DNA from: Rickettsiales bacterium
GTDB lineage: Bacteria > Pseudomonadota > Alphaproteobacteria > Rickettsiales > G965195355
Direction of reading: 5' to 3'
NCBI GenBank assembly: GCA_965195355.1
Contig: OZ239627.1
Location: 412,382-476,381, forward strand
Length of the DNA: 64,000 nt
Shown: piece after piece, positions 15,001 through 18,000 of the stretch
Position numbering within the stretch: position 1 is the stretch's first letter
How the letters are laid out: each line of letters opens with the position of its first letter
Program-made: the position numbers

Positions 15001-18000
15001 ATTTATATGGATAGCAAAGAAATTGTCTATTTTGCGCATAGGCAACGGAGTATCTTTAATCATATTGATGAATATTGTATCGGGTATCCCATCTCACTTG
15101 TCGCATTTATACGATGTATTATCAGACGGTGTTGTTTCTTATTTTGTGATATTGCTTGGTATAGCGCTAGTGATTATGACATCATATATTATAATATTTG
15201 TTGAATATCTTATCGCGCAGTAAGGGTTAATTATCCTAAGCATTTTGGATTATCAGGTGCACGTAATGATATAATTCCTATGAAGCTTAATATATCTGGT
15301 ATTGTGCCATTTATTTGTGCTAATGTGATGCTAGTGTTTATGTTGCGCTTTTTTGGTATGTTTGATTTCAATGTGCTGGTCTTTTTGCATGATGTACTAA
15401 TGCAGAATAGGCTAGTGCATACGCTAATGATTGTGATGTTTATGTCAACTTTTGTGTTTATATATAGTGATATAGCATTTGATTCGGTGTCCATTGCCAA
15501 AGATATTGGCAATTCTGGTGCTTTTATTGAGGGGTGTAGACCTGGAAAAGCAACTGAGATTTTTCTAAAGAAGATAGTATCTAAGCTATGTATAGTTGCA
15601 AGTATTTATCTTGCGTTGTTATTATTCATTGCAGATTTTACTACATACATAAGTAGTGGCATTATAGATTGTGGTATATCTGCATACATTGTCATTACAA
15701 TCCTGCTTGACATGTATAGTAATATTGTTTCTGAATATCGTGCTAGAGTGAGTATGAATGCGTAAATGTATCATTCTAATAGGTCCACCTGCATCTGGAA
15801 AAGGTACGCAAGCGGATATACTGTGCAAAGCAATAGGATATCATATAGTTTCAACTGGTACGGTATTGCGTAAAGAGATCTCAAGCAGTGGAAAAGATGC
15901 GAGTGTAATTAAGGAAAAAGTGGATTCTGGTGAATTGGTAGATATTGAAATTATCCAGCGATTAATGGATAGAGAATGTCAAGTTAATAAAGAAAATATA
16001 TTATTTGATGGTTTTCCAAGATCAATGGATCAAGTTCTGTTTCTCGATGAAATATGCAATAGGATTGACATGAATATATCTCGTGTAATACATCTTAATG
16101 TACAACTTTCTACAATACTTGAGCGCATTTCTAAAAGAGCAATTTGTGATTCGTGTGGATATACTGGTATCATACATGATGGTATATTTGTGTGTGCAGA
16201 ATGCGAATGTTCATCTTATGTATTGCGAAGTGATGATAAATCCGATAAGATTGCGCATAGGTATGAGATATATGAGAACTCCATAAGAGAGATTATGAGT
16301 TTTTATTCAAATAAAGTAATGTGCCATAATGTGAATGGAGATCGGAGGATAAACTCAGTGAGTGAGGATATAATGAAATGTATTAGGTAGATGTTTATGT
16401 GTGTGGTGTATTATGGCTAGAGTTGCAGGTTATGATTTGAACGTGAATAAGCGTGTTCATATTGCACTTACGTATATACGTGGCATAGGAAGAAGCACTG
16501 CGGTATCAATATGCGAAAGCAATGATGTGCCTTGCAATATGCGATTGCGTGATATGAGTAGTGCGGATATAGCAAAATTATCAGAGTATATTGATGCGCA
16601 TTGCGTTGTGGGATCTGATTTATCATCACGTGTTATCTTGAGTATTCGTCGTTTGATTAAAATAAAATCGTATAGAGGTTGGCGTCATAAGTCATCCCTT
16701 CCAGTGCGAGGTCAAAGAACTCGCAGTAACGCTAAAAATGCTAGGCGTATTGGAAATAGATATTGATTTTGGTATAGGTATTTGTTGTGTCTTCTTTTTC
16801 TAATCGTTCTTTTAATTCTGGCGCCAGTGCTAAAAGGATGTATCTTTTTCATCTCAATATGAGTTATAACAACATCTTCGTTGCATTGGCTGATGAGGCG
16901 GGGAATATTTTGGTTACGAAGAGCGGTGGCTCTATGGGTTTTTCTGGGTCAAAGAAAATTATGCCTCTTGCTGTTAGAAAAACTGCTGAGTTTGTTGCTA
17001 ATCGTGCTAAAGTGATCGGTGTAGTAAATATTAGAGTTCTTGTGCAGGGTCCTGGTACCACTGCTTTTCAAGATGCTGTGAAAGGTATAGTATCTCAAGG
17101 ATTAAATTTAGTTCAGTTTCGTGACATTACTCCTATAGCGTTTAATGGCGTGAGACGTAGAAAACGTCGTAGAGTGTGATGTGTGGTGTTATGAAATTTT
17201 TTGGTGGATTAGGATTCTCTGTAAAAGAAAATGGATCTGATGCGGATCTGATTATTGAAAGATTACCTCCAGCTGCTTCTGGAATATTGGCGCATTTTCT
17301 TCATTCGCTAATTCTTAGGCGAGATGTAGATTATAGAACGTGTGTTTGCGCTTTTTCCATGAAGGGCCTAGGTAATGGATGTGATTATGTAAAAGGAGTC
17401 CTTGAGGATTCTATGCAGATTATCGCCAATTTTGACAAGATTCATTTGTCAATGGATTCTGAATCTAGTTTATATGTTAAAATTGCATGTAATGGTCCAT
17501 GCGTGGTTAATGCGGGTATGCTAGAGGATGCATCTAATGGAGTAGTTCTGGTTGATGATCGCGCTCTTAGAATATGCGAAATTACTAGTGAAGGTGATCG
17601 AGATATAGTGTGCTTCATCTCAAATGGTTGTGATGCTGAAAATATAAATTCTAGTGCTTCATTGACTAATGATTTTATTAAAATGAAACCATCATCATCT
17701 CTTGTAAAGCATGTAGAATACTCTGTGCGCGAAACGTGCGCGAAAGATGTAAAACATGATGAATTAACTCTCACAGTTCGTACTTTTGTTGCGGGAGATG
17801 CAATAAAAATATTGCGCAATGTATCTAAATGTATGTCTGAGATGTTTTCTGATTTGTATTCATCTTTATCTAAAGAAGGCTGTGACTCTGAATTACCACA
17901 TAAGCATTCTTCATCTGCAAAGATTAGAAAATGCCTGCTGTCGCGCTTGGAAGAAATGCCTTTCTCAATACGCGCTCAAAATTCTTTCAGGGCGCATAAA

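What the first reader, a model, noticed from the sequence alone, without database searches (positions are those of the whole stretch)
15197..15282. secY is broken by a frameshift in a conserved loop, with no slippery sequence
Frame A ends ...IIIFVEYLIAQ with TAA at 15221-15223. The conserved continuation YRAVRVNYPKHFGLSGARNDIIPMKLNISGIVPFICA corresponds to the xRxIPVxYxK ... LKxNxAGVxPxIFA segment of SecY. It is readable only in the -1 frame, which is open from 15205 because TGA sits at 15202-15204. A 1-nt gain or 2-nt loss between 15205 and 15220 explains the break. The local sequence gttgaatatcttatcgcgcagtaa has no homopolymer and no X-XXY-YYZ heptamer. Transcriptional slippage and classical -1 programmed frameshifting are therefore not obviously available. 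SecY is normally indispensable, so the options are:
- A sequence error.
- A functional two-polypeptide SecY, with the second half possibly starting at ATG 15280.
- Genuine decay compensated in some other way.
Basis: partly seen in the sequence, partly recalled or inferred. Interest (0 to 1): 0.6.

Follow-up and report, generated by a model that had tools for sequence, protein, structure and literature searches.

The report
One-base frameshift splitting secY
The gene for the essential protein-export channel SecY in this small symbiont-like alphaproteobacterial genome is interrupted by one missing base, but everything else about the gene looks healthy, so the break is most likely a sequence error or a very young mutation rather than a new kind of gene expression.

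Summary
secY reads in one frame from 14534 to a TAA at 15221-15223. It continues in the -1 frame, open from 15205, to 15765. Pfam SecY covers profile positions 3-148 and 152-306 in the two pieces, and 3-306 in one stretch once they are joined. An Arg invariant in 119 homologs is encoded at 15214-15216 in the -1 frame, which narrows the site to 15205-13.

- **Location:** the break is at the cytoplasmic end of TM6, at the start of the TM6-TM7 loop.
- **No decay downstream:** both halves are equally conserved, and the three invariant loop residues survive.
- **Isolated lesion:** all about 55 other recognisable genes in the window are full length.
- **No rescue signal:** there is no slippery site, no RNA structure, and no properly spaced ribosome-binding site before ATG 15280.
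- **Split unlikely:** in yeast Sec61p, splitting in this loop is one of two positions not tolerated.
- **No comparison possible:** no close relative exists in any collection searched.

Best reading (about 0.5): an uncorrected base error or an unfixed, very young allele of a normal one-chain SecY. A genuine two-piece SecY (about 0.22), decay with compensation (about 0.15) and unconventional recoding (about 0.07) remain open. Reads are needed to decide.

The parts
14534..15223 (+). secY N-terminal reading frame. It gives 229 aa covering TM1-TM6 and ends in the out-of-frame tail YLIAQ followed by TAA.
   Evidence: ORF. Pfam SecY profile 3-148, 58 bits. Aligns to E. coli SecY. Its ATG overlaps the rplO stop (ATGA).
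15202..15204 (+). TGA that closes the -1 frame upstream. It sets the 5' limit of the possible shift site.
   Evidence: Direct reading.
15205..15213 (+). Most likely position of the missing base (ATATCTTAT). Candidates are GAA(A)TA or CTT(T)AT. Both frames are open across 15205-15220.
   Evidence: There are 23 nt between the FVE and NY codons, against 24 in homologs. The invariant Arg is encoded by CGC 15214-15216 only in the -1 frame.
15205..15279 (+). Codons for the TM6-TM7 cytoplasmic loop (C4), readable only in the -1 frame. There is no canonical start codon in this stretch.
   Evidence: Translation. R228, Y234 and P249, each invariant in 119 homologs, are retained.
15221..15223 (+). Premature TAA that ends frame A.
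15280..15765 (+). secY C-terminal part (TM7-TM10) from the only canonical start in the -1 frame. It gives 161 aa.
   Evidence: ORF. With the loop codons 15205-15279 included, the 186-aa C piece matches Pfam SecY profile 152-306 at 90 bits. The C5-loop RPG motif and pore-ring Ile261 are conserved. The nearest GGT is 21 nt upstream, against 3-9 nt for the genes that have one.
14091..14537 (+). rplO (L15), the upstream neighbour. Its stop overlaps the secY start.
   Evidence: ORF. Identified by position and by reading the GRGIGSG...KGQ motif. Pfam gave no hit.
15758..16390 (+). adk, the downstream neighbour. Its ATG overlaps the end of the secY C frame by 8 nt.
   Evidence: Pfam ADK, 115 bits. 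ORF.

Best explanation
This is an ordinary spc-operon secY (rplO-secY-adk) whose deposited sequence lacks one base in 15205-15213, at the codons for the cytoplasmic end of TM6 and the start of the TM6-TM7 loop. The missing base is most likely an uncorrected consensus error, or a very young and possibly unfixed allele in a polyploid symbiont population. On this reading the organism makes, or made until very recently, a normal single-chain SecY of about 410 aa. It is not a programmed frameshift and not a long-established split gene.

Shown here: the identity of the gene, the position and sign of the lesion, the absence of recoding signals, and equal conservation on both sides of the break. Inferred: that the lesion is artefactual or recent.
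For: - **Clean repair:** restoring one base gives a protein that matches Pfam SecY 3-306 in one stretch. It aligns without a gap at the junction to E. coli SecY, query 13-398 against chain 26-420 of 5abb_A.
- **No extra decay downstream:** mean identity to 119 homologs is 0.251 for the N half and 0.246 for the C half, a ratio of 0.98. Homolog pairs give 1.04 +/- 0.10. Matches at conserved columns are 40/95 in the N half, 4/11 in the loop and 32/77 in the rest of the C half.
- **Loop still intact:** R228, Y234 and P249, invariant in 119 homologs, are kept in the 75 nt that would be untranslated if the C piece began at ATG 15280. The RPG motif and pore-ring Ile261 are also kept.
- **No rescue mechanism visible:** no frame-A codon in 15205-15223 can re-pair in the -1 frame (direct reading). 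The RNA fold z-score is +1.26. No homopolymer is present for transcriptional slippage, which in known cases needs long A or T runs (PMC5009743).
- **SecY is still needed:** the window encodes membrane proteins such as an MFS transporter, CcmC, a YGGT-family protein, an HlyD-family protein and FlhA.
- **Isolated lesion:** secY is the only broken gene among about 55 recognisable genes, all of which have near full-length profile coverage.
Against: - The window holds 35 homopolymer runs of 7-9 nt, and the recognised genes that contain them are in frame (with the Pfam calls). The assembly therefore does not look prone to indel errors, and the break lies where runs are only 2-3 nt long.
- This SecY is unusually divergent. 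Its best identity to any protein is 32%, against 54% for GyrA, and it scores 154 bits against Pfam. Constraint on SecY in this lineage may therefore be relaxed, and a real lesion more tolerable.
- Reduced symbiont genomes do carry genuine frameshifts.
- No reads, no second strain and no relative were available to test the base call.
Confidence: 0.5

Rival explanations
1. The frameshift is genuine and fixed, and SecY works as two polypeptides. The N fragment (TM1-TM6, 229 aa) terminates at TAA 15221. Ribosomes then reinitiate 57 nt downstream at ATG 15280 to make a C fragment (TM7-TM10, 161 aa). The two pieces assemble in the membrane with SecE.
For: - The break falls in a cytoplasmic loop and leaves all ten hydrophobic segments intact.
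- ATG 15280 sits exactly at the start of TM7, at a column where none of 119 homologs has Met.
- The C frame is open for 186 codons and is as well conserved as the N half.
- Complementary Sec61p fragments can reconstitute function at most split points (PMC2185549 and PMC8675477, both citing Wilkinson et al. 1997).
- The assembly handles long homopolymers well.
Against: - In yeast, the splits that did NOT complement were those in loops 6 and 7. Loop 6 is the loop broken here (PMC2185549).
- A start at ATG 15280 would discard 25 loop residues, including three invariant ones, yet these are still conserved.
- The nearest GGT is 21 nt upstream of ATG 15280, against 3-9 nt for the genes that have one.
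- This protein has Met at 3 of 43 comparable I/L/V columns, so the ATG may be there by chance.
Confidence: 0.22
2. The frameshift is genuine and inactivating, and secY is an early-stage pseudogene. Export would then be maintained by something outside this window, such as a second secY, or the lineage is losing Sec-dependent functions.
For: - SecY and the neighbouring ribosomal proteins are far more divergent than FlhA, PlsX, NuoD or GyrA in the same window. This is consistent with relaxed constraint.
- No rescue signal is present in the sequence.
Against: - There is only one lesion and no further decay after it.
- No second SecY from the 991,359-bp contig appears among the 120 listed SecY hits, although the word-index search could miss one.
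- Many membrane proteins that need SecY are intact in the window.
- No other pseudogene was detected in the window.
- To my knowledge, accessory SecY2 systems are a feature of Gram-positive bacteria (own knowledge, not tested here).
Confidence: 0.15
3. The frameshift is genuine and is corrected during expression by an unconventional event. Possibilities include a -1 or +2 ribosomal shift, or a short hop, by a highly divergent ribosome. Examples are tRNA-Ala re-pairing from GCG 15215-17 to GCA 15217-19, or Tyr TAT 15206 to TAT 15211.
For: - The loop codons between the shift and ATG 15280 remain conserved, as expected if they are still translated.
- GCGCA offers perfect +2 re-pairing for one tRNA-Ala (direct reading).
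- Corrective frameshifting is documented in mitochondria, and transcript-level correction in some endosymbionts (PMC5009743).
- The ribosomal proteins here are very divergent, and L29 and S17 are absent from their usual place.
Against: - There is no slippery heptamer, and no P-site codon in 15205-15213 can re-pair in the -1 frame.
- The GCG-to-GCA shift would skip the invariant Arg.
- No stop or obviously slow codon follows either candidate take-off codon.
- There is no stimulatory structure, with a fold z-score of +1.26.
- The only Shine-Dalgarno-like AGGGT lies downstream of the site, not upstream.
Confidence: 0.07

Closest known systems
Canonical bacterial SecY (PF00344) in the spc operon, between rplO and adk
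   Same: Same gene position, with start and stop overlapping the neighbours. Full colinear match to E. coli SecY and to the Pfam profile once one base is restored. Ten hydrophobic segments are present. The RPG motif in loop C5, pore-ring Ile and the NxxGxxP motif of TM7 are conserved.
   Different: Interrupted by a 1-nt deletion. Very divergent, with identity of 32% or less to any protein in 5.8 billion. The C4 loop is 3 residues shorter than in E. coli and lacks the R255/R256 pair.
Frameshifted genes of insect endosymbionts (Buchnera, Blochmannia) rescued by transcriptional slippage at long poly(A) tracts
   Same: A gene with a frameshift in a reduced, AT-rich, host-associated genome (PMC5009743, PMC3017870).
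   Different: Those cases sit in long A runs. PMC5009743 describes long poly(A) runs and slippage on runs of 9 A or T. Here the longest run at the site is 2-3 nt. The A/T runs of 7-9 nt elsewhere in the window lie in genes that are in frame.
Split Sec61p: complementary N- and C-terminal fragments of yeast Sec61p (Wilkinson et al. 1997, as reported in PMC2185549 and PMC8675477)
   Same: The channel can be made from two polypeptides broken in a loop. Here too the break leaves every TM segment intact.
   Different: That system is artificial and eukaryotic. Breaks in loop 6 (the TM6-TM7 loop, as here) or loop 7 were the ones that failed to complement.
Programmed ribosomal frameshifting in bacteria (dnaX -1 at A AAA AAG; prfB +1 at CUU UGA)
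   Same: Two overlapping frames encode one protein.
   Different: No slippery sequence, no upstream Shine-Dalgarno stimulator, no downstream structure. Conservation across species could not be tested.

Membership tests
SecY/Sec61alpha (PF00344) | Significant full-length match to the family profile | tested here: met
   The joined protein scores 154 bits over profile 3-306, against a cutoff of 32.2. The halves score 58 and 90 bits. E-value to E. coli SecY structures is about 1e-46.
SecY/Sec61alpha (PF00344) | Ten transmembrane segments in two five-helix halves, with conserved pore-ring and loop motifs | tested here: met
   Hydropathy detects nine of the ten TM segments at the threshold used (TM2 did not reach it); all ten follow from the colinear alignment to E. 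coli SecY. M68, V72 and I261 sit at pore-ring positions (reading of the alignment). R336-P-G, N253, G256 and P259 are conserved.
SecY/Sec61alpha (PF00344) | Single uninterrupted reading frame | tested here: not met
   TAA at 15221-15223. The continuation is in the -1 frame.
SecY/Sec61alpha (PF00344) | Location at the end of the spc ribosomal-protein operon | tested here: met
   The order is rpsE, rplO, secY, adk, rpsM, rpsK, rpoA, rplQ.
Programmed -1 ribosomal frameshift site | Slippery heptamer X XXY YYZ, or a P-site codon able to re-pair in the -1 frame | tested here: not met
   Direct reading of 15197-15223 finds none.
Programmed -1 ribosomal frameshift site | Stimulatory downstream structure or upstream Shine-Dalgarno-like element | tested here: not met
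   The fold of 15190-15310 has a z-score of +1.26, and 186 of 200 shuffles fold at least as well. The only AGGGT lies at or after the stop codon.
Programmed -1 ribosomal frameshift site | Conservation of the shift in related species | not testable with these tools
   No relative was found. The best SecY hit is 32% identical. The metagenome scan found none. The source genome is absent from the genome collection.
Transcriptional-slippage rescue (endosymbiont poly(A) type) | Long homopolymeric A or T run at the indel | tested here: not met
   The longest run in the overlap window is 2 nt, with TTT just upstream.
Naturally split (two-gene) membrane protein | The second piece has its own start codon with a normal ribosome-binding site | tested here: inconclusive
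   ATG 15280 exists, but the nearest GGT is 21 nt upstream, against 3-9 nt for genes that have one. Several genes in the window also lack an obvious site.
Naturally split (two-gene) membrane protein | Sequence between the two pieces is free of constraint, or the split is conserved in relatives | tested here: not met
   The inter-piece loop codons keep all three invariant residues. No relatives are available.
Decaying pseudogene | Multiple lesions or accelerated divergence downstream of the first lesion | tested here: not met
   There is a single lesion. The C/N identity ratio is 0.98, against 1.04 +/- 0.10 in homolog pairs.

The most novel reading that the evidence does not exclude
The frameshift is real and fixed, and this fast-evolving symbiont still makes a working SecY. 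It would do so either as two polypeptides broken in the TM6-TM7 loop, a position that is not tolerated in yeast Sec61p, or by a corrective -1/+2 decoding event that needs no slippery sequence and may be linked to its very divergent ribosome.
Probability: 0.25. Interest if true: 0.7.

Novelty: new member of a known kind. Interest (0 to 1): 0.3.

Why it matters
SecY is close to universal and indispensable. A genuine, fixed break would mean one of three things:
- a natural two-piece translocon, split in the ribosome- and SecA-binding loop;
- an unrecognised form of corrective decoding;
- a symbiont losing autonomous protein export.

Each of these would interest people who work on translocons, recoding or organelle-like symbionts. 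The more likely outcome is practical. It would be a single-base error, or a young allele, that should be corrected or annotated as such so that the genome is not scored as lacking secY.

Tried and rejected
- **Identifying the source genome or a relative.**
  - Exact-protein contig look-ups for both halves and for GyrA found nothing.
  - The cluster look-up shows both halves as singletons from one 991,359-bp contig.
  - The genome-collection scan with EF-Tu returned only hits of 61-67% identity from scattered phyla, not the source. In hindsight this was a poor use of the single scan.
  - The metagenome scan with joined SecY found no relative.
  - A literature search for the genome size and for a frameshifted secY in symbionts gave nothing relevant.
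- **Alternative genetic code.** Rejected. The stop is TAA, other genes end normally under table 11, and reading TGA as sense in the -1 frame gives non-SecY sequence upstream.
- **Other broken genes in the window.**
  - The overlapping ORF pairs glmM/hemC and plsX/fabH, and rplQ/yraN, are separate full-length genes.
  - Six-frame, stop-masked translation of 29990-30920 gave no Pfam remnant. For 4150-4860 only the three plus-strand frames were submitted, also with no remnant.
- **Internal promoter or terminator between the halves.** None beyond chance.
- **+2 slip on GCGCA, or a 2-nt GC duplication, as the origin.** Considered and disfavoured, because either would remove the invariant Arg.
- **The unique Met at position 250 as an evolved start codon.** Not significant. 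The protein has Met at 3 of 43 comparable columns.
- **Wilkinson et al. 1997.** The paper itself is not held, so its result is cited second-hand from PMC2185549.

Full report
**Observation.** The region 14534-15765 on the + strand is secY.
- Frame A runs from ATG 14534, which overlaps the rplO stop as ATGA, to TAA 15221-15223. It gives 229 aa ending ...IIIFVEYLIAQ.
- The -1 frame is closed by TGA 15202-15204. It then reads ISYRAVRVNYPKHFGLSGARNDIIPMKLNISGIVPFICA... without a stop to 15763-15765, and it overlaps the adk start at 15758.
- Pfam SecY (PF00344) matches the N piece at profile positions 3-148 (58 bits) and the C piece at 152-306 (90 bits).
- If the pieces are joined as FVE|ISYRAV, one stretch covers 3-306 at 154 bits.
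- Against solved structures, the joined protein aligns colinearly with E. coli SecY (query 13-398, chain 26-420 of 5abb_A, E about 1e-46). There is no gap at the junction: FVEISYRAVRVNYPK aligns with FVERGQRRIVVNYAK.

**Sign and position of the lesion.** Between the FVE and NY codons there are 23 nt, where E. coli and the consensus of 119 homologs have 24. The lesion is therefore a net loss of one base (or a gain of two).

The Arg that is invariant in all 119 homologs corresponds to CGC 15214-15216, which is read only in the -1 frame. The change of frame must therefore lie in 15205-15213 (ATATCTTAT). The simplest models are GAA(A)TA or CTT(T)AT, that is, one base lost from a run of three.

By alignment to E. 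coli SecY the break sits at E238/R239. This is the cytoplasmic end of TM6 and the start of loop C4 between TM6 and TM7.

**Context.**
- The window has an alphaproteobacterial two-piece tmRNA at 43564-43911 on the minus strand, about 36% GC and more than 90% coding density.
- Both secY pieces are singletons in the protein collection. They come from one contig of 991,359 bp.
- No close relative exists anywhere I could search. The best SecY hit is 32% identical and the best GyrA hit is 54%, among alphaproteobacteria including Rickettsiales endosymbionts.
- The metagenome scan found nothing, and the source genome is not in the genome collection.
- Conservation of the frameshift across species therefore cannot be tested.

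**Is the gene decaying?** No.
- I aligned the joined protein with 119 homologs. Mean identity is 0.251 upstream of the break and 0.246 downstream, a ratio of 0.98. Pairs of homologs of similar divergence give 1.04 +/- 0.10.
- At columns that are at least 60% conserved, the query matches 40/95 in the N half, 4/11 in the loop between the break and ATG 15280, and 32/77 in the rest.
- The loop matches include all three residues that are invariant in 119 homologs: R228, Y234 and P249.
- The RPG motif of loop C5, the N-x-x-G-x-x-P motif of TM7 and pore-ring Ile261 are intact.

So the sequence downstream of the break, including the 75 nt that would be untranslated if the C piece began at ATG 15280, has been under the same constraint as the rest. 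The lesion is young, artefactual, or bypassed during expression.

**Is there a bypass signal?**
- No frame-A codon in 15205-15223 can re-pair in the -1 frame, and there is no X XXY YYZ heptamer.
- The RNA fold of 15190-15310 is weaker than shuffled sequence, with a z-score of +1.26.
- There is no homopolymer for transcriptional slippage. The documented endosymbiont rescues use long poly(A) tracts (PMC5009743).
- A +2 re-pairing of tRNA-Ala on GCGCA (15215-15219) is chemically possible. It would skip the invariant Arg, and it has neither a following stop codon nor a stimulator.
- No promoter-like or terminator-like site separates the pieces beyond chance.

**Could it be a two-piece SecY?**
- In favour: the break leaves all ten hydrophobic segments intact, and ATG 15280 lies exactly at the start of TM7. 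None of 119 homologs has Met at that column.
- Against: the protein has Met at 3 of 43 comparable I/L/V columns, so the Met is not remarkable.
- Against: many genes in this window carry a GGT-type ribosome-binding site 3-9 nt before the start. Upstream of ATG 15280 the nearest GGT is 21 nt away.
- Against: in yeast, complementary fragments of Sec61p restore function except when the break is in loop 6 or loop 7 (PMC2185549, reporting Wilkinson et al. 1997; also cited in PMC8675477). Loop 6 is the loop broken here. Cleavage of loop 6 in mammalian Sec61alpha also abolished SRP-dependent translocation (PMC2185549).

**Error or real?**
- For an error or an unfixed allele:
  - SecY is needed, because the window encodes an MFS transporter, CcmC, a YGGT-family protein, an HlyD-family protein and FlhA.
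  - There is exactly one lesion.
  - secY is the only broken gene among about 55 recognisable genes, which all have near full-length profile matches.
  - The two ORF-free gaps I tested show no pseudogene remnant.
- Against an error:
  - The window contains 35 homopolymer runs of 7-9 nt, and the recognised genes that contain them are in frame.
  - The assembly therefore does not look indel-prone, yet the break is at a place with runs of only 2-3 nt.
  - This SecY and the ribosomal proteins around it are unusually divergent compared with FlhA, PlsX, NuoD and GyrA in the same window. Constraint may be relaxed.

I cannot separate these without reads. My estimates are:
- about 0.5 for an error or an unfixed, very young allele of a normal one-chain SecY;
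- 0.22 for a genuine two-piece SecY;
- 0.15 for an early pseudogene with compensation elsewhere;
- 0.07 for unconventional recoding.

**Comparison with what is known.**
- The gene is a member of the SecY family by profile, topology, motifs and operon position. It fails only the uninterrupted-frame criterion.
- It does not meet the defining features of programmed -1 frameshifting or of poly(A) transcriptional-slippage rescue.
- It resembles artificial split Sec61p in principle, but at a position where splitting failed.
- Single-indel interruptions of essential genes in reduced genomes, real or artefactual, are a known kind of finding.

**Verdict.** Interest is low to moderate (0.3) unless reads show that the lesion is real and fixed.

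Noticed in passing
window 10610-10626 and 14077-14091: The S10-spc cluster goes straight from rplP (L16) to rplN (L14) with a 15-nt spacer, so rpmC (L29) and rpsQ (S17) are missing from their usual place. rpmD (L30) is also absent between rpsE and rplO. Loss or relocation of S17 would be unusual.
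   Followed up: partly
window 6174-18499: The ribosomal proteins of the S10-spc-alpha cluster are intact in length but very divergent. L15 gives no Pfam hit, L17 scores 23.6 bits (below its cutoff of 27), and L3, L6, L18 and L24 score 33-40 bits. Enzymes and FlhA elsewhere in the window score normally. This stretch also has the strongest GC skew in the window, +0.25 to +0.31.
   Followed up: partly
window 1-675 (-): This is the N-terminal part of a FlhA/FHIPEP export-gate protein (flagellar or type III secretion). It runs off the window start and is very well conserved, at 324 bits over 197 profile positions. That is notable in a genome of about 1 Mb that looks like a symbiont's.
   Followed up: partly
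window 3992-6536: The gene order is tRNA-Tyr, tRNA-Gly, an ORF-free gap of about 700 bp with no Pfam hit in the three plus-strand frames tested, tuf, tRNA-Trp, then rpsJ. There is no rpsL-rpsG-fusA upstream of tuf and no secE-nusG after tRNA-Trp. The arrangement looks like a chimera of the two usual tuf contexts.
   Followed up: partly
window 35740-39580 (+): Two large adjacent ORFs of 835 and 450 aa have no Pfam family. They lie in the only part of the window with raised GC, 0.43-0.45 against about 0.36 elsewhere. They may be lineage-specific surface or effector proteins, or acquired DNA.
   Followed up: no
window 29991-30918: This 926-bp stretch has no ORF of 60 aa or more and no Pfam remnant in any frame. 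It lies next to tRNA-Arg (29592-29664). Its nature is unknown.
   Followed up: partly
window 18319, 21167, 36118, 51887, 1567: There are five 9-nt A/T runs. Four of them lie inside ORFs that are in frame: rplQ, pdhA, orf835 and fabH. Runs of this length are known to allow transcriptional slippage (PMC5009743).
   Followed up: no
window 15223-15227: The sequence TAAGGGTTAATTAT at the premature stop resembles the GGT-type ribosome-binding spacers seen before many genes, for example rpsC and rplQ. No start codon follows at the usual distance in the SecY frame, so it is probably a chance product of the Arg-Val codons.
   Followed up: yes
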